Source: a virus (taxonomy: Duplodnaviria; Caudoviricetes). From it: a DNA stretch of 31,151 nt. Positions 23,601-31,151 of this stretch are shown one piece after another (the first letter of the stretch is position 1; each line of letters opens with the position of its first letter). The DNA is taken from the IMG/VR virus record IMGVR_UViG_3300030376_001531, positions 1 to 31,151 of that record, one strand, 5' to 3'. Under the pieces are notes generated by a model. That model ran no database searches. It saw nothing but the letters and a program-made list of their open reading frames with translations, and had not been told where the DNA came from. The position numbers were made by a program, and so were the translations under genes.

Positions 23601-26600
23601 AAATTCTCAGAAAAGTTCCTAATATAATAGAAATTCAAAATAAAGCTATAACTAGATTACAACAAGGTGAAAACAAAGCTGAAGTATTAAAAGAGTTTAA
23701 CACTATGCTTCCAATTGCAGAAGCCGCTGCTGCTCAAAATTTAAAAATACAAGAGTATACGCAGGCTTTACTAGAAAAAAGATGTACATCACCATGTAGA
23801 GTTCCTAGAACATCTAAACAAGTTAAGAAAACATTATTAAATTCATTAGCGGCAAGAATAAAAGCTTTAAATCCTTTCAAAAAACCAAAAGGTTTAAGTG
23901 CTTTTGACATGGACGATACTTTAGCTTTAACAAAAGAAAAAGTAATATACACACTTGATGGTAAAACATCTGAGTTAACAGCAGGTGAATTCGCTGTACA
24001 GTACGAAGGATTATTAGAACAAGGCGCAGAGTTTGATTATAGTAATTTTGACAATGTAGATTTATCTACGTCAAAAGGTCCATTAGCTGGAACAGCTTTA
24101 AGACGTCAAGATAAATATGGGTCTAAAGATATTTTTATTGTTACAGCTAGACCAAATGCTTCTCAAAATGCTATTAAAGTTTGGACTGATAGTATAGGTT
24201 TAAATATACCTATTGAAAATATTATTACATTAGAAGATGGATCACCTCAAGCAAAAGCAGATTGGTTGTTAAGTAAAGCAGCTGAAGGATATAATGATTT
24301 TTATTTTGCAGATGATTCATTATTAAATGTACAAACTGTAAAAGATATACTTGGTCAAATAGATGTTAAATCAAGAGTTCAACAAGCTATAGATGATAAA
24401 GCAACTAGACTTGATCAAGAGATGAATGATTTAATTGAAGACGCTACAGGTATAGGAGCAGAACAATTAGTAAGCGAGGTAGAAGCTAGAGTTGAAGGTA
24501 AGAAAAGAGACAAGGGTTTCTTTAAAAGAGTATTAAGACAGTTTAAAATAACAGCATCAGCTGATGATTTCTTAGGTTTAGGATATTATATGTTTGGAAA
24601 AGGCGAGAAAGGTACTAGACAAAGAAAATGGTTTGTTGAAAATTTAATAGCTCCTTATGATAAAGCTGAACAAGCTTTAATATCTGCTAAAGCTACTGTG
24701 GCGAATGATTTTGCAGCTCTTAAAAAAGCTTTCCCTAGTTTAAGAAGTAAAGGTGTAAAAGGATTTTTTACTAATCCTTTGAATCAAGAAGTTGGATATA
24801 AATCGTTTACTAAGTCACAAGCAGCAAGAGTTTATTTATGGAATAAACAAGGTATGGATATTCCTGGTATGTCTCAAGCAGATATAGATGGTTTAGTTAA
24901 TGCTGTTAATACTGATTTTGAATTACAACAATTTGCAGATAAAATACAGTTAATACAAAAAGAAGCACAATATCCTGGTCCTAAAAATAATTGGTTGGCT
25001 GGTGATATTAAATCTGATATATTAGGTAGTTTAGATACAACCTTTAGAGCTGAATTATTATCTGAATGGAATTCAAATATAAATATTGTATTCTCTGAAA
25101 AAAATCTTAACAAGTTAGAAAAAGCATTTGGTTCTAAATATGTAGAAGCTGTAAAAGATTCTATAACACGTATGAGATCAGGAACTAATAGACCTACTTA
25201 TACAGGAAGTGGATCTCGTCAAGTTAATGAAATGATGGACTGGATAAACAGTTCTGTCGGTGTAGCGATGTTTTTAAATGTTAGATCTGGATCATTACAG
25301 ATGCTATCTAATGTAAACTTTTTAAATTGGGGTGATAATAATATATATGCAGCTGCTAAAGCGTTTGTTAGTAAAGATTATGTTCCTACAGTTATGAAGT
25401 TGATGAACTCTGATTATCTTGTAAATAGACGTGATGGTTTAAAGATTAATGTAAATGAAGCTGAACTTGCTGCGGCCGCTAATAAAGGTGGTTTTAAAGG
25501 AATGCTTAACTATTTACTTGATAAAGGTTTTATAATTACAAGAATCATGGATAGTTTAGCTATTGCAACAGGTGGTGCTCCTTTTTACATTAATAGAGTA
25601 AAATCATTGTTGAAAAGAGTTAATCCAGAAACTGGTAAACTTTATACACAGAAAGAAGCAGAAACAAAAGCATTTGATGATTTTTATTCTATAGCAGAAG
25701 AAACACAACAGTCAAGTAATCCTAGTAAAATATCTTCTCAACAAGCAAGTTTATTTGGACGTACGATATTATCTTATCAAAACGTTACAATGCAGTATAA
25801 TAGAAAGGCTAAGAAAATGTTATTAGACTTTATCAATAGAAGACGTAGACCAGGAATGACACAGCGTGAAAGTGATTTAAGTAATTTATCTGGTGTTGTT
25901 TATTATGTTGCTATACAAAATTTAATATTTAATTCTTTACAACAAGCTTTATTTGCTCTAGCATTTGATGAAGATGATGAAAGAGAAAAAGATAAAGTAG
26001 CTGATACTATAAACGGTATGATGGACTCATTATTATTTGGTCTTGGATTTGGTGGAGCTATAATATCTACGGTAAAAAATGTAATAAGAGAATTAAAATT
26101 CCAGCATGATAGAAAGAGTCCTAAATATGAAGAAGCTGTATTTAACTTGTTTGATATATCACCTGTAATAGATCAAAAGGTTCGTAATGTTAGAACAGCT
26201 TTGAGAACATTTAGTTGGAATATGAAAGAAATTAAAAATAGAGGTTGGAGCATAGAAAACCCAGCTTATCTAGCTGTTTCTCAATTAATATCTGCCTTTA
26301 CTAATATACCAATAGATAGAGCTCTTAGAAAATATAACAATATTAGTCAAGCTTTTGATGAAGAAACTAGAACATATGAAAAAATAGCTTTACTATTAGG
26401 TTGGAATGGTTGGAACTTTGGTTTACCATATTGGGGTAGAGAAAGTACAATACAGCAAGAATTAAAAGATGAAGAAACTTTAAAAAAGAAATTTAAAGCT
26501 GATGTTAGAAACGCAAAAGCAAATGGCTTTACAAAGAGAGTGCCTTTTACAGGGCCAAACTCAGGTAAACCAAAAGGTGAACTTGGAGTTGATTATGTAC

Positions 26601-26647
26601 AGATAGAGAGATATGACGGATTGATACAATACTATAAAAAACCATAA
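17639..26647 (+). CDS. Giant multidomain internal virion/ejection protein with membrane-type segments and a HAD-family phosphatase domain
   Basis: 3002-aa uninterrupted ORF. Gly/Ala-rich hydrophobic stretches at about 19950-20610 and 25870-26080. HAD motifs FDMDDTL, IVTAR, K and FADDS at about 23891-24390. Confidence 0.72.
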   Translation: MVNPKDYAWRDKAAWNDIPEYHRDRVKNQFEKDWDITNHENHDLVGSYVQTWLANNEDKNIDKAGDIIDKEKSLQTDDANMKRIHEQLKKAKFLKGKALDYDTFVQHAVNNPEYRMKIHSVLRQNNMESNDIDFNTFNTKVFGDESSITKAPGSSALDDMTLEEQEKIAKELGMTVEEMLADEGAQRIFTRAQPDNTMIEVEGVPFDIAAQLQGNEKTQGSNNYENQLIAQQEAYNEIFAGGADAIPLLPDGTVDYNALNAKIKEIKGFTPNIRIAKQDSVIEDFDFDTQLNLDANNIMVPDLSGERDSISGRNKIGGEWDTSTNRAIKALQPFVKAGFSFEEGEDPDDMSGQTESLLITAPNGEKLNIQPTSSNQQTILDFLKNNNQLMSAADQRANQRKLIEYYDGEIDLTTKELAKISIIDPEVKDYVMRSMPEDSEILNKDDFMGTVNPQTQKKYTEDEAIDAEFNSFQEAYKQTFDKAVHNDPRYEFATMQAREATDKLSKDYIEKLREKYADEDGLVSEENMPLMQEEFADWYNNTTQENLKNNKVAKRLFQDYGLASAELYGDRFRSFEKYNYDTWLDENVYREIDQALDSGRGGPIIEFMETVIPTGGWWNRAWQKVRSSSASIPAGIRTVSNTIEIALQKELEMEGRSEIYNSIKDGIENGDLTENMTLAEAREVNGEIDSWMNWNLLHGWSEDDSLKDFYAKRKERYDNTVRDLTEDLGDLSQQERYASFAADYADMELDGYAIPDWFVNSSADMIKQAPHMVPSTLGGILLAAGTATTAVSGGTLSFAGIPAATLGSGLLAVGSGVMASQVYADVYMQGLRRQMEGEYGEGGFSTEDYLDALSKDEYGSQMPALTAAALTGASEYLFGKLGGNITGNVAGNILKSTAGNKILGATFANYARGLVSYGAATTIDGVIEGATEGFQSYMAQVAENAMNLYKGDMENEATSSIFYKNIDVDEIIEEAKMGFNMGIFMGVGGVALSNKSNKGGSYDNLNYEGRAMQIAEKYDISGFNNDDGGIGPGKSGPGGSGAGISTAANKAFLDIQQAIKTNNNLTPVQKRNKIQTVSDIREAAIKVPPTVRGADKKALIDLLREKKSTTNQIKKINDKTISGSQGLDGRLSEINTEISDIIKNNINNKPITRNTLIPPKVMDAIFNNVSRFAGVQNFVDPRDRALNRDFSIADDGISPAQQGPKLNEGVQDFTQDQRTRTNRPQTVEGEIIQAEAAGAPDVRNIVAENDSYSRTDRLMNDADFDLDNRFDQRRVLKAAAPVIEAALKREYKPGSLLTRDQFRTALENEYLLTLREYNEDQDVNLQGPGKQTSNLFALRAKRITRENIGKGERASLDREDAMQVADTSQEQDLDQDQTVGTREKVYSSETDQVQDQDVSETKANIEDQVAKDILLAVNKGDNPATIVSEIKNNVKKSYFKELRRDIGTFASKAYKDFINSLDEAFIKSIPAATIKRRFGKLFGIKQIGITPTKQISKSGKPSNFNKQIYSIPKITKQGLQEFKDYFLAGEKRQQSMYQILANDFALESINELMADKGFMQRLETALGDSGITAVEFMQTVENLLDARVKEDTSLDVIDAPVKQAAGASPTPTPVDGRRAIKEADKKKAREKLAKEKLQKKIDKAKKKVNLKDSDAYFEFSKDKEGTSLSSMFGFKKIPVKTEKYIGQRGKSKGKQKSRTIYDLDAISEVASKEDASNKLTFRELREEGINGFLDTIKDPDKRKKYTELLKSSMTGSKRLNFNTVSEFDSSISGAEGTTLEQNRTRYKNKKGTLDKNATDIVYSEQNLDDVLDLFDDLGSFLREGDNLKYLPVFDSMIDDSGNNMNHMIRIAAPYAFYPIDINTGKPDFTSKIDEEHSLPAQNLARLLLYAAATDQMNIVRPVVKGSYIQGAMLASEHADLANKGLKSKMNEAFNLVFTGLRDGNVAKVYQGLGSLVRYTGENVINPNQYVLNKYNKTIAEYYGVQVDKILRKVPNIIEIQNKAITRLQQGENKAEVLKEFNTMLPIAEAAAAQNLKIQEYTQALLEKRCTSPCRVPRTSKQVKKTLLNSLAARIKALNPFKKPKGLSAFDMDDTLALTKEKVIYTLDGKTSELTAGEFAVQYEGLLEQGAEFDYSNFDNVDLSTSKGPLAGTALRRQDKYGSKDIFIVTARPNASQNAIKVWTDSIGLNIPIENIITLEDGSPQAKADWLLSKAAEGYNDFYFADDSLLNVQTVKDILGQIDVKSRVQQAIDDKATRLDQEMNDLIEDATGIGAEQLVSEVEARVEGKKRDKGFFKRVLRQFKITASADDFLGLGYYMFGKGEKGTRQRKWFVENLIAPYDKAEQALISAKATVANDFAALKKAFPSLRSKGVKGFFTNPLNQEVGYKSFTKSQAARVYLWNKQGMDIPGMSQADIDGLVNAVNTDFELQQFADKIQLIQKEAQYPGPKNNWLAGDIKSDILGSLDTTFRAELLSEWNSNINIVFSEKNLNKLEKAFGSKYVEAVKDSITRMRSGTNRPTYTGSGSRQVNEMMDWINSSVGVAMFLNVRSGSLQMLSNVNFLNWGDNNIYAAAKAFVSKDYVPTVMKLMNSDYLVNRRDGLKINVNEAELAAAANKGGFKGMLNYLLDKGFIITRIMDSLAIATGGAPFYINRVKSLLKRVNPETGKLYTQKEAETKAFDDFYSIAEETQQSSNPSKISSQQASLFGRTILSYQNVTMQYNRKAKKMLLDFINRRRRPGMTQRESDLSNLSGVVYYVAIQNLIFNSLQQALFALAFDEDDEREKDKVADTINGMMDSLLFGLGFGGAIISTVKNVIRELKFQHDRKSPKYEEAVFNLFDISPVIDQKVRNVRTALRTFSWNMKEIKNRGWSIENPAYLAVSQLISAFTNIPIDRALRKYNNISQAFDEETRTYEKIALLLGWNGWNFGLPYWGRESTIQQELKDEETLKKKFKADVRNAKANGFTKRVPFTGPNSGKPKGELGVDYVQIERYDGLIQYYKKP

Positions 26648-26649
26648 CT

Positions 26650-26727
26650 ATGAAAAAATTTATTGACAAATTACAACAAGCTTGGAATAAGCTATTATAT
26701 AAATTAATGTTTAAAAAATATAAATAA
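26650..26727 (+). CDS. 25-aa cationic amphipathic peptide
   Basis: MKKFIDKLQQAWNKLLYKLMFKKYK*. It fills the gap between the giant gene (stop 26647) and the next start (26734) almost exactly. Not in the ORF track. Confidence 0.65.
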   Translation: MKKFIDKLQQAWNKLLYKLMFKKYK

Positions 26728-26733
26728 TGAATA

Positions 26734-27912
26734 ATGAAAAACATACTATGTGTCCTATTTGCGGCGGTTATTGCGGTATCTGCTAACGCTCAAGAAAAAA
26801 ATAAATTATTTAAAGACTTTCTAAAATATAGTACAGTGTATATTTCTGGAGATATTCAAAACTCTAAAGAAAATGCACCGAGTTATTTTGTTAGAACAAA
26901 TCCTAACGGTAGTTTGTACGATGTACCTGTTGTAGTCGACGGTACTGACTATTATGACTATGATTATCGCTATGGTTTTGGTATTCGTAAGATTGCTAGA
27001 TTTGATTATGAAATAAAAGGCAAACAATACTACGATGGCACTGAATCTAACGTGTCTATGACAGCACCTAACTCAGCTATAAAAGGTTTTGAATATGTAT
27101 TTCATACTGAAAAAGAAAGATCTAGAGATGATGTTTTTAAAAATCATAGATATTTCTTAAAACACAGTGGTAAATACCATATTGCAAAAATAGAAAGTAG
27201 AAAACAAGGTAAAATTAACTTTGATTATAAATCTGCAGAATTAAGAGCCAAACTACCAATTGGTAAAAAATTTAGTTTATCAGGTGGAGTTATGTATCGA
27301 ACACATGAAAGACCTTATGGTTATAATCCTGTAGAGATATGGTTAAATGAAACTAATGCTCAAGGTCAAGCTGTTAATCCTTGGTATACTTTAGGATTTT
27401 ATTATGGATACGACGATATTTATTATACATATGAAGATGATTATACAGGTGAAACAGTATCTGATTGGTACTGGATTGATGAAGAAGGTGAAACTGTAGC
27501 TTATACTGATCTACAATTTAGACAGACAGTATTTACTGATCTTATGAATCGTTATAATGATGAGATATGGGAAGATATTGATGCTTTTGGTGTAATATCA
27601 CCTGTGATCGGTTTTGACTATTATCATTATAAAAATAATTTCTGGCTTCATGCTTATGGTTCTTATTTATTACCGTATCATAAATATGTAAAAGGCGATG
27701 AAGCTTTCAGCTATCACAATAGAAACAACTGGGGTTTAGGAGGTTTAGTTGAAGACGCTGAAAAAGAACAATGGAGTGATTACCAAACTGGTGTACAATT
27801 TGGTTGGAAACTTAGTAAAAGTATAGGTTTGTTTGTAGAAGGAGAATACACTAAGTTCTGGGATAGTAAAATATATAATAGTTCAGTAGGATTAAACATA
27901 ACATTAAAATAA
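26734..27912 (+). CDS. Exported outer-membrane beta-barrel-like protein
   Basis: Sec/SPI signal peptide (MKNILCVLFAAVIAVSANA|QE). Tyr/Trp/Gly-rich with alternating beta strands (FSLSGGVMYR, VIGFDYYHY, TGVQFGWKL, IGLFVEGEY) and terminal strand SVGLNITLK. Confidence 0.65.
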   Translation: MKNILCVLFAAVIAVSANAQEKNKLFKDFLKYSTVYISGDIQNSKENAPSYFVRTNPNGSLYDVPVVVDGTDYYDYDYRYGFGIRKIARFDYEIKGKQYYDGTESNVSMTAPNSAIKGFEYVFHTEKERSRDDVFKNHRYFLKHSGKYHIAKIESRKQGKINFDYKSAELRAKLPIGKKFSLSGGVMYRTHERPYGYNPVEIWLNETNAQGQAVNPWYTLGFYYGYDDIYYTYEDDYTGETVSDWYWIDEEGETVAYTDLQFRQTVFTDLMNRYNDEIWEDIDAFGVISPVIGFDYYHYKNNFWLHAYGSYLLPYHKYVKGDEAFSYHNRNNWGLGGLVEDAEKEQWSDYQTGVQFGWKLSKSIGLFVEGEYTKFWDSKIYNSSVGLNITLK

Positions 27913-27913
27913 A

Positions 27914-28198
27914 ATGGCAAAGCAAATAGGTGAAGATACTAAAGTAACACTTGATCTTAAAACGATAGGTATGATAATAGGTGGAGCAGTTTCGTTAGCT
28001 TTAATATATTTTACATTACAAGCTGATATAGCTTTGGCTAAAGAGTTGCCAAAACCAGTTATTGAAAGAGTAGAATATGATTTAAAAGATGAGTTGATTA
28101 GACAGACAATTATGGACACACAAGAAGATGTTGAGGCGATGAGAGATCAATTAGATAAAATTGATGAGAGATTATATGAAATACAAAAAAATAGATAA
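27914..28198 (+). CDS. Single-TM membrane protein with C-terminal coiled coil (holin- or i-spanin-like topology)
   Basis: 94 aa. TM segment TIGMIIGGAVSLALIYFTL followed by a heptad-like charged helix. Confidence 0.55.
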   Translation: MAKQIGEDTKVTLDLKTIGMIIGGAVSLALIYFTLQADIALAKELPKPVIERVEYDLKDELIRQTIMDTQEDVEAMRDQLDKIDERLYEIQKNR

Positions 28199-28608
28199 TG
28201 AAATACTTAATTTTACTTTTAATACCTTTTTTATCTTTTAGCCAGCAAGATGTTCCTGATGAATATTGGTTAACAGATGATGGGTTTGAAGATGCTATAA
28301 ATACTAATGAAGCTTTTGGAGATGATCAAAAAAAACCAGTTATAGTAGAATTTTGGGCTAAGTTTAATGAAGCAAATTGTTTTGCTGATTGGGATAAATT
28401 AGAAGATGTTATTTACTATAGAATAGATATAGCTAAAGCGCCACAATCAAAAAAGAAATACAGAGTGCGTATGGCACCTACATTAATTATATTTAAAGAT
28501 GGTGTAAAAGAAAATGTTTTTAAAGCAGGTCTAGATCTTTTATTACCTGCTGATTTAGAAGAAATACAAGAAGCAATAAACGAAGTAAATAAAGCTTCAC
28601 AATTTTAA
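28198..28608 (+). CDS. Exported thioredoxin-fold protein lacking CxxC
   Basis: Signal peptide MKYLILLLIPFLSFS|Q. PVIVEFWAKFNEANC aligns by eye with Trx VLVDFWAxWCGPC, and YRVRMAPTLIIFKDG with the Trx cis-Pro motif. Coupled to the upstream gene by TAATG. Confidence 0.7.
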   Translation: MKYLILLLIPFLSFSQQDVPDEYWLTDDGFEDAINTNEAFGDDQKKPVIVEFWAKFNEANCFADWDKLEDVIYYRIDIAKAPQSKKKYRVRMAPTLIIFKDGVKENVFKAGLDLLLPADLEEIQEAINEVNKASQF

Positions 28609-28609
28609 A

Positions 28610-28753
28610 ATGAAAAAGAAAAAATTAAATAGTAAAAATCCTAAATACTATCCACAAGAAGAAGAATCAAAAGATAGAAGAGAGTTAATTGCTACAATAC
28701 CTTTTGGTAAAAAACGTAAGGTTCATGCTTACGCGGTATTTAATGAAAACTAA
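28610..28753 (+). CDS. 47-aa basic hypothetical protein
   Basis: MKKKKLNSKNPKYYPQEEESKDRRELIATIPFGKKRKVHAYAVFNEN*. Tiles between the Trx-like stop (28608) and the endolysin ATG (28758). Confidence 0.6.
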   Translation: MKKKKLNSKNPKYYPQEEESKDRRELIATIPFGKKRKVHAYAVFNEN

Positions 28754-28757
28754 TAAT

Positions 28758-29222
28758 ATGGAAAATATAAGTAAACATATAACTTATGCTGAAGCTATAC
28801 ATTCAAATACAGCTAAGCGTAAAGGTATAGATAACACACCTAATCCTACTCAGTTAGAAAATATGAAAGTTACTGCTGAAAAAGTTTTTGAGCCATTACG
28901 TGCTTGGGTTGGTGGACCTATAAAAGTAAACTCATTTTTTAGATCACCAGAACTTAATACAGCAATAGGTGGAGTTACTTCTAGTCAACATTGTAAAGGA
29001 CAAGCAATTGATATTGATGATGTTTATGGCAGAAAATCTAACGCTGAGATGTTTACTTACATAAGAGAAATGCTTGATTTTGATCAAGTAATATGGGAGT
29101 TTGGTACAGATATGAATCCTAACTGGATACATGTATCATATGTTTCAAAAGAGGAAAATAGAAATCGATGTTTAAAAGCCTACAAAGACGATAGAGGTAG
29201 GACAAAATATAAAACAATTTAA
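28758..29222 (+). CDS. Peptidase M15 (M15A/M15_3-type) Zn peptidase, probable endolysin
   Basis: 154 aa from ATG 28758. Motifs FRSPELNTAIGG..SQHCKGQAIDID and WIHVSY supply the His/Asp/His Zn ligands of the M15 family. Confidence 0.88.
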   Translation: MENISKHITYAEAIHSNTAKRKGIDNTPNPTQLENMKVTAEKVFEPLRAWVGGPIKVNSFFRSPELNTAIGGVTSSQHCKGQAIDIDDVYGRKSNAEMFTYIREMLDFDQVIWEFGTDMNPNWIHVSYVSKEENRNRCLKAYKDDRGRTKYKTI

Positions 29223-29223
29223 C

Positions 29224-30297
29224 ATGAACAAACAAATGGCAAAAGCAGCTCAAGCAGCTGGAAAAGTAGGACAGCAATCTGGAGCTAAAGAAGCTTGGAG
29301 TAATTTCAGAAAAGAATACATGGACCGAGAAGGTAAAACAACTGTTAAAAGACAAGAAGACGGTAGTTACAAAAAAGAATTAATACCTACAAGTGCTGAA
29401 GAAAATCAAGCTGAGTATGATAGAGAAAAAAATGAATTTTACTATGATACTAACAAAGGTAAAATAAGGTTAATACCAACAGATGATGGAGAACAACAAG
29501 ACAGATCTGGGATTCAAGATTGGCAGCTAGCACCTTCTATGAAAGAAGATCCTAAAAGAGGAGAAGCTGGTTTTCAACAAGATCCTCAAGAAGCTTATTA
29601 TGAAAATAAATCTAAGAAAATGACTGAAGATGATAAGAGGTTACACGCGGTTTCTTCAATAACAGACAAATCTATAAAAGAACAGGATTATCCAGGGCAA
29701 GTCGGTGTTGATTTAGGTGTAATAAAAAAGAAATCTGTTTTAAACATGCTAGGTATATCAGGATCTCCACTTAAAAATGAAAAAAATATTAAACCAAGAA
29801 CTGGTTATAATACTATGCATATGGGCGATAAGAGAGCAAAAGAGATAAGTGAAATGTCTATCAACAGATCTCTTGCTGGTAAAGCAGCTTCTAAGAAAAT
29901 GAAAAGAACAAAAGTTGGACGTAATCTTAAATCTGCAGGTAAAGTTGCTGTAGAAGGTGCTAAGCAAGGTTTAGCAGAAGGTATGCAGTCTATGGTTGAA
30001 AAAGCAAAACCTGTTAATATACCTAAACCCAAGCCGAAGAAAAAAGGACAATCTTTTGAGGCTAGATCTCGTGAGCACATGAGAGCTCCTGGTAAAAATA
30101 CTAAAATGGGTATATCAATGAAGTCACCGTTAGAAATATCTGGTATTAAAAGCCCATTAAACAAAATTAGTGGTCCTTGTAAAACCGCTGCAAAAAAGAA
30201 GTTTAAAGTCTGGCCTAGTGCTTATGCTTCAGGTTGGGGTGTAAGATGTACTAAAGCCGGTGGACCAAGCAATTACGGAGGAGGTAAGAAAAAATAA
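29224..30297 (+). CDS. Basic low-complexity modular protein with C-terminal Cys-flanked WPSAYAS mini-domain
   Basis: 357 aa, Lys-rich, with three SPL motifs. Ends in CKTAAKKKFKVWPSAYASGWGVRCTKAGG. Confidence 0.6.
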   Translation: MNKQMAKAAQAAGKVGQQSGAKEAWSNFRKEYMDREGKTTVKRQEDGSYKKELIPTSAEENQAEYDREKNEFYYDTNKGKIRLIPTDDGEQQDRSGIQDWQLAPSMKEDPKRGEAGFQQDPQEAYYENKSKKMTEDDKRLHAVSSITDKSIKEQDYPGQVGVDLGVIKKKSVLNMLGISGSPLKNEKNIKPRTGYNTMHMGDKRAKEISEMSINRSLAGKAASKKMKRTKVGRNLKSAGKVAVEGAKQGLAEGMQSMVEKAKPVNIPKPKPKKKGQSFEARSREHMRAPGKNTKMGISMKSPLEISGIKSPLNKISGPCKTAAKKKFKVWPSAYASGWGVRCTKAGGPSNYGGGKKK

Positions 30298-30848
30298 TGA
30301 GTCTTTTTAATGATTTTAATATAGAGCAGTTTAAACGTAAAAGACCACCAAGTGATGGCTCTTTAACTACTTATAAAGAAATAAACGACATTAAAAGAAT
30401 ACCTATTAATAAAGAGTTTGTTGAATACAATGATGATCAAGAAAAAGTTTTTAAAAATATTTTTAAACAAAAAGGACTTGCATTTCCTGAAGACACGTTT
30501 ACACAGCTTAACAATGATAGTGCTGATATAATTACAAAACTTAAAAATTATCACGGTAGAACTAGACCACAAGGTTTGGCTAAAGGATTAGGTTTAAATT
30601 TAGACGTTGTTAACATGGACACGGCTAAAACAAAATCATATCCATCAGGTCATTCTGCTCAGTCAAAGTTGTTTGCAAATGCATTTAGTGAAATGTATCC
30701 TCAATATAAAAATGATTTTATGAAAGCAGCAAATGATATTTCACAAAGCAGATTAGTAGGAAGAGTTCATTATGCTTCAGATTCAAAAGTTGGTGAAGAA
30801 TTAGGAGACGCAATGTATAACCATATAAAAGAAAGAAATGGCATTTAA
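30297..30848 (+). CDS. PAP2-superfamily phosphatase (soluble acid phosphatase/haloperoxidase-like)
   Basis: All three PAP2 motifs are present: KNYHGRTRP (Kx6RP), SYPSGH and SRLVGRVHYASD (SRx5Hx3D). No TM segments or signal peptide. Confidence 0.88.
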   Translation: MSLFNDFNIEQFKRKRPPSDGSLTTYKEINDIKRIPINKEFVEYNDDQEKVFKNIFKQKGLAFPEDTFTQLNNDSADIITKLKNYHGRTRPQGLAKGLGLNLDVVNMDTAKTKSYPSGHSAQSKLFANAFSEMYPQYKNDFMKAANDISQSRLVGRVHYASDSKVGEELGDAMYNHIKERNGI

Positions 30849-31151
30849 ACTACATAACTCACCTTTCAAATGTTGGAAAGGCTATGAAAGAGTACCTGGC
30901 ACTGCACAAGGCGCAAAAGGTAGTTGTCGTAAATCATCACCTATAAAAAAACAAAAAGGCGGTGGTACATCTAAGACATGTTTACCTAAAGCTAAAATAG
31001 CTAGCTTGTCTTCTGATAAGAAAAAAGAATTAGTAAGTTCAAAGAAGTCTGCTGCTTCAAGAGGTGCTTACAAAAGATCAAGTAAAACAAATGTAAAGGG
31101 TGCTCGTAAAAAAGGAGCTACACTCAGAGACTGGTTTGAAAAAGAAGACTG
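30838..31151 (+). CDS. Basic Cys-containing modular protein, 3'-truncated by the window edge
   Basis: ATG 30838, open to the end: MAFKLHNSPFKCWKGYERVPGTAQGAKGSCRKSSPIKKQKGGGTSKTCLPKAK...GATLRDWFEKED. Absent from the ORF track because it has no stop in the window. Confidence 0.75.
   Translation, partial: MAFKLHNSPFKCWKGYERVPGTAQGAKGSCRKSSPIKKQKGGGTSKTCLPKAKIASLSSDKKKELVSSKKSAASRGAYKRSSKTNVKGARKKGATLRDWFEKED

What the first reader, a model, noticed from the sequence alone, without database searches (positions are those of the whole stretch)
26734..28608. Tightly coupled trans-envelope trio beside the endolysin: beta-barrel + TM coiled coil + redox-dead periplasmic thioredoxin
Seen: three genes with a 1-nt gap and a TAATG overlap, encoding a predicted outer-membrane barrel, an inner-membrane anchored coiled coil and an exported Trx-fold protein. 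That is one product per envelope compartment, placed just upstream of an M15 endolysin. Established: Gram-negative lysis normally needs a holin and spanins (i-spanin plus lipoprotein o-spanin, or a u-spanin), but I see no lipobox protein or multi-TM holin in this block. Inference: an undescribed phage envelope system, either non-canonical outer-membrane disruption/lysis timing, superinfection exclusion, or a host-modifying channel.
Basis: partly seen in the sequence, partly recalled or inferred. Interest (0 to 1): 0.8.

Follow-up and report, generated by a model that had tools for sequence, protein, structure and literature searches.

The report
Phage three-layer envelope module beside lysin
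An uncultured marine phage that likely infects Flavobacteria carries three genes, kept together across many different phages and usually next to cell-wall-cutting enzymes, for a predicted outer-membrane barrel, a predicted inner-membrane coiled coil and a thioredoxin-like protein lacking its active cysteines, which likely link up across the host envelope to open the outer membrane at lysis, an untested mechanism unlike any described spanin.

Summary
Observation confirmed. A (392 aa) is predicted as a 12-strand outer-membrane barrel, B (94 aa) as a single-pass coiled coil, C (136 aa) as an exported thioredoxin without CxxC (0 of 87 homologs). The three stay linked in podovirus-type and 160-180 kb phages, down to 25-34% identity of A; A and B were not found in INPHARED or in 400 sampled host-class genomes. 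A lysin, of five types, lies within 3 kb in 66 of 86 non-redundant loci. The missing holin is likely a fragment effect: the 12 closest-type records all carry one. B-C is the tighter pair: two near-complete phages keep B+C without A. In one divergent lineage B carries a cytoplasmic c-di-GMP-binding (MshEN-type) domain and a longer coil, sits beside A, and C was not found. Best reading (0.4): a lipoprotein-free, three-part bridge for outer-membrane disruption. Main rival (0.28): a lysis-timing sensor, favoured by conserved barrel lumen and surface loops and by spanin-like genes in some trio phages. No function or binding is shown. This scan noted the same trio on other DNA before (8 notes seen); eight literature searches listed no description.

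The parts
26650..26727 (+). 25-aa basic, likely amphipathic peptide gene; not part of the trio
   Evidence: ORF; short-query tblastn hits in 87 of 224 loci at E <= 1, the 14 printed all identical; no Pfam match
26727..26786 (+). 19-aa CxxCxxxCxxC micropeptide gene overlapping the signal-peptide codons of A in another frame
   Evidence: same motif in 93 of 216 A-bearing loci (duplicates included); 21 distinct contexts overlap A, 19 overlap other genes' starts, 19 stand free
26734..27912 (+). Gene A: 392-aa predicted 12-strand outer-membrane beta-barrel with likely Sec signal peptide, a 93-residue acidic/aromatic loop (192-284) predicted on the cell surface, and invariant polar lumen-facing residues
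   Evidence: no Pfam, PHROG or NCBIfam family; 2540 relatives at 90% clustering, 361 at 50%
27914..28198 (+). Gene B: 94-aa predicted type II inner-membrane protein: conserved 17-residue N-terminus, one TM segment, about 60-residue predicted periplasmic part with coiled coil
   Evidence: no Pfam or PHROG family, two sub-cut-off NCBIfam hits; ESM Atlas neighbours are unnamed viral clusters
28198..28608 (+). Gene C: 136-aa thioredoxin-fold protein with likely signal peptide, no CxxC, invariant cis-Pro-position proline (P94) and conserved loops around it
28610..28753 (+). 47-aa basic protein of unknown function between the trio and the lysin
   Evidence: cluster present in 61 loci; no family
28743..29222 (+). 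Peptidase M15 endolysin (start at 28743 or 28758)
   Evidence: PF08291 E 1.5e-17; phrog_894 endolysin E 4.1e-29

Best explanation
The three genes are inherited together and usually lie beside lysis genes, and they likely encode a lipoprotein-free bridge across the host envelope that would open the outer membrane at lysis, the job spanins do in other phages. Inferred steps: late in infection B would sit in the inner membrane with its coiled coil in the periplasm; C would be exported and grip B through the peptide-binding groove of its redox-inactive thioredoxin fold; A would be inserted in the outer membrane by the host and serve as the outer anchor in place of a lipoprotein o-spanin. After a separately encoded holin and the neighbouring lysin have removed the wall, the bridge would pull the membranes together or open the barrel. 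B's conserved cytoplasmic end likely gives a point of control. Shown: genes, linkage, neighbourhood, loss of CxxC. Predicted: folds and locations. Inferred and untested: binding, outer-membrane disruption, host.
For: Lysin within 3 kb in 66 of 86 non-redundant loci (45 of 58 with 3 kb flanks), of five types: M15 46, PG-binding amidase 7, a 201-aa family matching phrog_33083 endolysin 7, DUF5675 5 (lysin role inferred), glucosaminidase 2. In large phages the trio sits within about 30 nt of a 2-TM gene on one side and the amidase on the other, with a PF05105 holin next (L078, L130, L154). In the deep family 57 of 78 non-redundant loci have a lysin or a holin-type gene (the unassigned 2-TM family counted as one) within 3 kb, often as B-C-M15-holin. 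Holin and lysin are encoded separately, leaving the outer-membrane step. My lipobox scan found no credible lipoprotein in complete trio genomes G007, G011 and G013. Three related phages without A or B (elemoE 6-9C, Panino, MW202828) carry instead a protein with an N-terminal TM segment and C-terminal beta strands, which was not found in 10 of the 13 whole records scanned and was found in only 3 of 31 near-complete records. Where C is not found, B's periplasmic part is about twice as long. Kongari et al. (PMC6139136, section 15 read) found no spanin in 91 of 677 phages and suggested an OMP could act as o-spanin.
Against: G028 (97% complete) and G035 (91%) keep B and a diverged C beside M15 with no A. 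A tracks B poorly: distance correlation A-B 0.14, A-C 0.26, B-C 0.60; insertions fall between A and B in 23 of 83 loci but between B and C in 2. Spanin-like genes coexist with the trio: an Rz-like protein about 1.2 kb after C in L062/G015 (phrog_739, E 4.4e-5), short lipoproteins with a C-terminal hydrophobic segment beside the trio in G016, G027 and G036, and the TM-plus-beta protein in G027, G029, G036 and G046. Barrel lumen residues and surface loops are highly conserved, more than a passive anchor would seem to need. B's roughly 60 periplasmic residues plus one thioredoxin are short for the periplasm (widths recalled). 19 of 86 near-family loci and 42 of 78 deep loci show no recognised lysin nearby; in G017 and G039 the amidase is 40-70 kb away. 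In podovirus-type genomes the whole post-structural block is a few kb, so closeness to M15 is partly expected.
Confidence: 0.4

Rival explanations
1. A trans-envelope lysis-timing switch, like T4 lysis inhibition: the barrel's surface loop or lumen would sense an outside cue (superinfecting phage, an ion or a glycan), C would relay it, and B would hold back or release the holin.
For: Invariant lumen-facing polar residues and conserved predicted surface loops; several distant A homologs show aspartate-rich, calcium-loop-like motifs in loop 4, read by eye. In one lineage B carries an N-terminal c-di-GMP-binding domain above the NCBIfam cut-off (NF053729, 45.6-53.5 bits against 38). B's 17 N-terminal residues are conserved. 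Holins and spanin-like genes coexist with the trio. B plus C resembles an inner-membrane protein with a secreted periplasmic partner, as T4 holin T with antiholin RI (PMC8385771, passages seen).
Against: It leaves G007, G011 and G013 without any outer-membrane-disruption candidate that I could find. A strict Dx[DN]x[DN]G motif was found in only 1 of 78 deep A proteins. The c-di-GMP domain was seen in one lineage only. No similarity to T or RI was found in Pfam, PHROGs or PDB searches.
Confidence: 0.28
2. A host-surface remodelling or exclusion module: A would be a phage-made channel or surface anchor (for example for phage-encoded T9SS cargo) tethered by B and C, lying among late envelope genes without acting in lysis.
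For: In the deep family 66 of 78 non-redundant loci have a gene with a T9SS-tail-like C-terminus within 1.5 kb of A (own profiles; the long class matches PF18962/TIGR04183, the short class tested did not). Other predicted envelope genes cluster near the trio. The fold matches are channels and transporters.
Against: In the window's own family only 2 of 86 loci have such a gene within 3 kb and only 2 of 31 near-complete records match TIGR04183. B-C sits directly before lysin and holin in many lineages. Exclusion genes are usually early (recalled), while this block follows the virion genes.
Confidence: 0.17
3. A is an outer-membrane enzyme (phospholipase- or lipid A deacylase-like) that would be switched on by B and C to weaken the outer membrane at lysis.
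For: Invariant His, Asp, Glu and Arg residues (H149, H191, H306, H316, D295, D349, E371). LpxR appears among the fold matches (Z 9.2, rmsd 5.0, 163 aligned).
Against: LpxR ranks 19th, below porins and autotransporters. Most invariant strand residues face the lumen by my alternation analysis, not the lipid. No sequence match to a solved enzyme.
Confidence: 0.08

Closest known systems
Two-component spanins (lambda Rz/Rz1 type; survey in PMC6139136)
   Same: Type II inner-membrane coiled-coil protein plus an outer-membrane partner, encoded next to lysis genes
   Different: The outer partner is a predicted integral barrel, not a lipoprotein; a third, soluble thioredoxin-fold protein is present; B has no cysteine and a short periplasmic part; no PHROG spanin match
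Unimolecular spanins (T1 gp11) and the disruptin of phiKT (bioRxiv 515445, start of abstract seen)
   Same: Alternative routes to outer-membrane disruption
   Different: Both are single small proteins; none of A, B, C has a lipobox with a C-terminal TM segment or is a cationic peptide
T4 lysis inhibition (holin T, antiholins RI and RIII; PMC8385771)
   Same: Single-pass inner-membrane protein with a secreted periplasmic partner and a cytoplasmic control point
   Different: No outer-membrane barrel in T4; no sequence or family match; the trio phages have other holins
Monomeric porins and autotransporter barrels (NanC, OmpG, CymA, EstA)
   Same: Overall barrel fold of A
   Different: 7-11% identity in the top rows, large inserted loops, found only on phage-like contigs here
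Thioredoxin (PF00085)
   Same: Fold and cis-Pro-position proline
   Different: No CxxC, likely exported, below the equivalog cut-offs

Membership tests
Two-component spanin | i-spanin: single N-terminal TM segment with periplasmic coiled coil | tested here: met
   B: TM from residue 17, heptad pattern and one-heptad insertion; topology predicted
Two-component spanin | o-spanin: outer-membrane lipoprotein with lipobox Cys, linked to the i-spanin gene | tested here: not met
   No lipobox hit in the window with my pattern scan; A has one Cys inside the signal peptide, C one non-conserved Cys at 61
Two-component spanin | Match to a known spanin family | tested here: not met
   No PHROG or Pfam match for A or B
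Two-component spanin | Rescues the outer-membrane step of lysis | not testable with these tools
   Needs complementation
Unimolecular spanin | N-terminal lipobox plus C-terminal TM segment in one protein | tested here: not met
   None of A, B, C
Outer-membrane beta-barrel protein | Signal peptide, amphipathic antiparallel strands forming a barrel, C-terminal strand signal | tested here: met
   alternating hydrophobicity in most strands, weak in 118-130, 133-145 and 285-300; many homologs end in Y-T-F-K/R. Prediction only
Specific porin, autotransporter or LpxR family | Clear best fold match or sequence family | tested here: inconclusive
   Top Z values 11.8, 11.7, 11.7 are tied across unrelated barrels
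Thioredoxin fold | Thioredoxin fold with cis-Pro loop | tested here: met
   P94 invariant
Redox-active thioredoxin | CxxC active site | tested here: not met
   0 of 87 near homologs; 0 of 136 deep homologs with an active-site-like CxxC, 2 with a CxxC anywhere
Holin | B matches a holin family or forms lethal inner-membrane lesions | tested here: inconclusive
   No family match; recognisable holins occur separately; activity not testable
T9SS cargo-anchoring barrel (PorV/SprF-like; labels recalled) | Obligate partner gene with a T9SS sorting domain | tested here: not met
   2 of 31 near-complete records of this family match TIGR04183; frequent only in the deep family

The most novel reading that the evidence does not exclude
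A new class of phage lysis machine, spread across abundant aquatic phages: a phage-made outer-membrane barrel, a redox-dead thioredoxin adaptor and an inner-membrane coiled coil form one bridge from cell surface to cytoplasm that both breaks the outer membrane without a lipoprotein and takes in signals (surface cues through the barrel, c-di-GMP through B in one lineage) to time lysis.
Probability: 0.4. Interest if true: 0.9.

Novelty: categorically new. Interest (0 to 1): 0.72.

Why it matters
How phages without spanins cross the outer membrane is an open question (91 of 677 phages in PMC6139136). This module is a concrete, testable candidate in a very common group of uncultured aquatic phages (about 2200 IMG/VR stretches estimated for B), and it would be the first case of an integral barrel in the lysis pathway that my searches could find. 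If it is a timing sensor instead, it would extend lysis control to a signal path across the whole envelope. Either way it bears on how marine Bacteroidota are lysed.

Tried and rejected
Complex prediction of A (21-392), two copies of B (34-94) and C (17-136) gave no answer (score 0.00 in both runs, controls not folded); this is no evidence either way. No RNA holder was listed for 26600-29300. tblastn of A and B against 50,697 INPHARED records found nothing; C hit only a Streptomyces phage thioredoxin. Profiles of A (near and deep) and B found nothing in 400 further genomes of the class of G050; the four genome-contig hits are phage-like contigs in MAG bins, so a host origin is not supported. 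PDB sequence searches gave a weak VirB9 hit for A alone (E 6.5e-4) that vanished with the profile, and only generic coiled coils for B. B-C fusion was suspected for the 223-233-aa B homologs and rejected: the extra part is an N-terminal c-di-GMP-type domain and a longer coil. An obligate T9SS-cargo link was rejected for this family. The tree is a quick IQ-TREE run; the careful search did not finish. The metagenome collection was not scanned. Literature searches listed no paper describing the trio; I saw titles and abstract starts only, most subscription journals are not held, and no supplements were read, so annotation tables of phage papers could mention these genes.

Full report
Setting. The window is a whole IMG/VR record of 31,151 nt, linear, 49% complete. 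It holds the structural arm of a podovirus-type phage: the C-terminal half of the terminase, portal, virion proteins, a crAssvirus muzzle domain and a 3002-aa protein. The 488-aa virion protein matches 85 INPHARED records, 68 of Flavobacterium, 15 of Cellulophaga, one of Maribacter and one unassigned, at up to 50% identity, so a Flavobacteriia host is inferred, not shown.

The observation. A folds as a barrel at mean pLDDT 71 with twelve long strands by my reading. Fold searches return outer-membrane barrels with no single best family, the ESM Atlas gives the same lead, and BFVD holds a 26%-identical viral homolog. If strand 1 starts in the periplasm, loops 43-76, 192-284 and 313-348 face outward and 87-117 inward; loop 192-284 has net charge -18 and 21 aromatic residues. 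The lumen-facing positions are mostly 90-100% conserved in 87 sequences. B has one TM segment and a coiled coil. C is a thioredoxin fold with no CxxC in 87 of 87 homologs, while the proline of the cis-Pro position and its neighbouring loops are kept, as expected for a peptide-binding rather than redox role (inference).

Linkage. Of the best 80 loci found by B alone (571 confirmed among 600 pattern matches in a truncated scan), 76 have A and 76 have C. Of 224 loci, 189 hold all three full length and 86 are non-redundant at 90% identity of A: 83 in order A-B-C, 3 in order B-C-A, 62 contiguous. A profile search at 50% clustering reached 361 proteins. Loci of three distant queries (170 fetched, 8 with only fragments of A) show B and C in 99 of 116 with full flanks, or 64 of 78 non-redundant ones, with A at 25-34% identity to the window. 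Carrier records range from about 55-kb podovirus types to 160-180-kb phages with T4-like portal and terminase by my reading. A and B were not found in cultured-phage records or in 400 sampled host-class genomes.

The core is B-C. Pairwise distances correlate at 0.60 for B-C, 0.26 for A-C and 0.14 for A-B. Genes are inserted between A and B in 23 of 83 loci and between B and C in 2. G028 and G035 have B, a diverged C and M15 but no A; G033 (65% complete) has B and C and only a weak partial A match. The reverse also occurs: in one lineage A sits directly after a 214-233-aa B homolog (hhalign 95%, E 2.5e-8) whose N-terminal 60 residues pass the cut-off of the c-di-GMP-binding family NF053729 and whose periplasmic part is about twice as long. 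No thioredoxin was found in five such records, four near complete (PF00085 may miss a diverged C). One of them has a PF00959 lysozyme two genes upstream.

Lysis link. A lysin lies within 3 kb in 66 of 86 near-family loci, of five types; two of the types are inferred lysins. On a quick tree of A the types need 28 changes against a minimum of 5 and a shuffled mean of 37, so lysin and trio have been re-paired many times. The strongest cases are large genomes where the trio is wedged between a 2-TM gene and an amidase followed by a holin. In the deep family 36 of 78 have a lysin and 57 of 78 a lysin or holin-type gene nearby. Against this, 19 of 86 near loci show none, and in G017 and G039 the amidase is tens of kb away.

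Holin and spanins. A 3-TM holin family (PF11351-like, phrog_3427) occurs in 24 of 31 near-complete records and in all of G001-G012; in G007 it is 1.3 kb upstream of the terminase, so this window's holin is likely in the missing half. For spanins I scanned 13 whole records and the window with a home-made lipobox pattern: G011, G013 and G035 gave no hit, G007 only three ORFs that I judged spurious; G016, G027 and G036 have 56-70-aa lipoproteins with a C-terminal hydrophobic segment beside the trio, and G015 has an Rz-like gene. Three relatives without A or B (stretches of 35-50 kb read) each encode, near lysin or terminase, a 181-207-aa protein with an N-terminal TM segment, a beta-rich linker and terminal beta strands. 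It has no named family; calling it a one-piece spanin is my inference. A profile of the three hit G027, G029 and G036 and none of the other ten records; a search of 49 records found 5, or 3 of 31 near-complete (three-sequence profile, limited reach). So replacement fits the smaller phages and fails in some large ones.

Mechanism. The best-fitting single account is a three-part bridge doing the outer-membrane step (0.4). The conserved lumen and loops, the c-di-GMP domain and the coexisting spanin-like genes fit a lysis-timing switch nearly as well (0.28). A surface-remodelling role (0.17) rests on T9SS-tail-like neighbours in 66 of 78 deep loci but only 2 of 86 near loci and 2 of 31 near-complete records. 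An enzyme role is weak (0.08). A lysis-related role of some kind is about 0.75.

Known systems. The trio fails membership of two-component and unimolecular spanins (no lipoprotein) and of redox thioredoxins, though it may work like a spanin. Papers: PMC6139136 (passages and section 15) lists spanin-less phages, including Bacteroides and Croceibacter phages, and suggests an OMP could act as o-spanin; PMC8776804 (passages) annotates unimolecular spanins in two flavobacterial phages and has no occurrence of thioredoxin or outer membrane in its main text; bioRxiv 2024.01.23.576932 (abstract) shows an extra lysis factor in LambdaSo; PMC8385771 (passages) describes T4 lysis inhibition; bioRxiv 515445 (search listing). 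Periplasm width, the barrel beta-signal and PorV/SprF labels are recalled. Earlier notes of this scan report the same trio on other DNA with the same spanin-like reading, which I had formed before looking; one note reports a barrel, MshEN membrane protein, thioredoxin fold and holin with an H-NOX gene, which I did not test beyond my own MshEN result.

Verdict. A real, widespread, undescribed phage envelope module, tied to lysis genes, with predicted folds and no tested function. Interest 0.72.

Noticed in passing
window 26727-26786: A 19-aa four-cysteine micropeptide gene overlaps A's signal-peptide codons in another frame. In relatives the same motif overlaps the start of A (21 contexts), of a lipoprotein (14), of a third gene (5), or stands free (19), so one short DNA unit seems to supply both a Cys peptide and a signal peptide and to move between genes.
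   Followed up: partly
window 26650-26727: A 25-aa basic, likely amphipathic peptide, identical in the 14 hits printed of 87 loci; a disruptin-like or antiholin role is possible and untested.
   Followed up: partly
L385-L394, L477-L505 (e.g. L490:3501-4145): B homolog fused to a c-di-GMP-binding domain (NF053729), directly upstream of A, with C not found.
   Followed up: yes
L302:5614-6159, L301:35390-36013, L303:42701-43303, L283:1703-2311: Unnamed protein family with an N-terminal TM segment, beta-rich linker and C-terminal beta strands near lysin or terminase genes of Bacteroidota-type phages; a candidate reverse-topology one-piece spanin.
   Followed up: partly
L309:306-2546, L338:8308-10602, L371:2572-5001, L444:5981-6553: Phage-encoded secreted proteins with T9SS sorting domains or similar tails beside A in most deep-family loci.
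   Followed up: partly
L090:4684-4995, L091:6347-6667: A second, distant B-like protein (phrog_20984) near the trio in some phages.
   Followed up: no
L087:4766-4978, L078:5715-5993: A 70-100-aa two-TM protein with no convincing family match recurs beside the trio in 51 loci; holin-like by topology.
   Followed up: no
window 30297-30848: PAP2-family phosphatase gene (PF01569, E 9.4e-8) downstream of the lysin.
   Followed up: no
window 29224-31151 and related loci: The block after the lysin is full of small, very basic proteins that are shuffled freely among unrelated phages.
   Followed up: no
L081, L082, L084: Three phage contigs with gene A are binned in a MAG labelled Woesearchaeota, likely contamination.
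   Followed up: no
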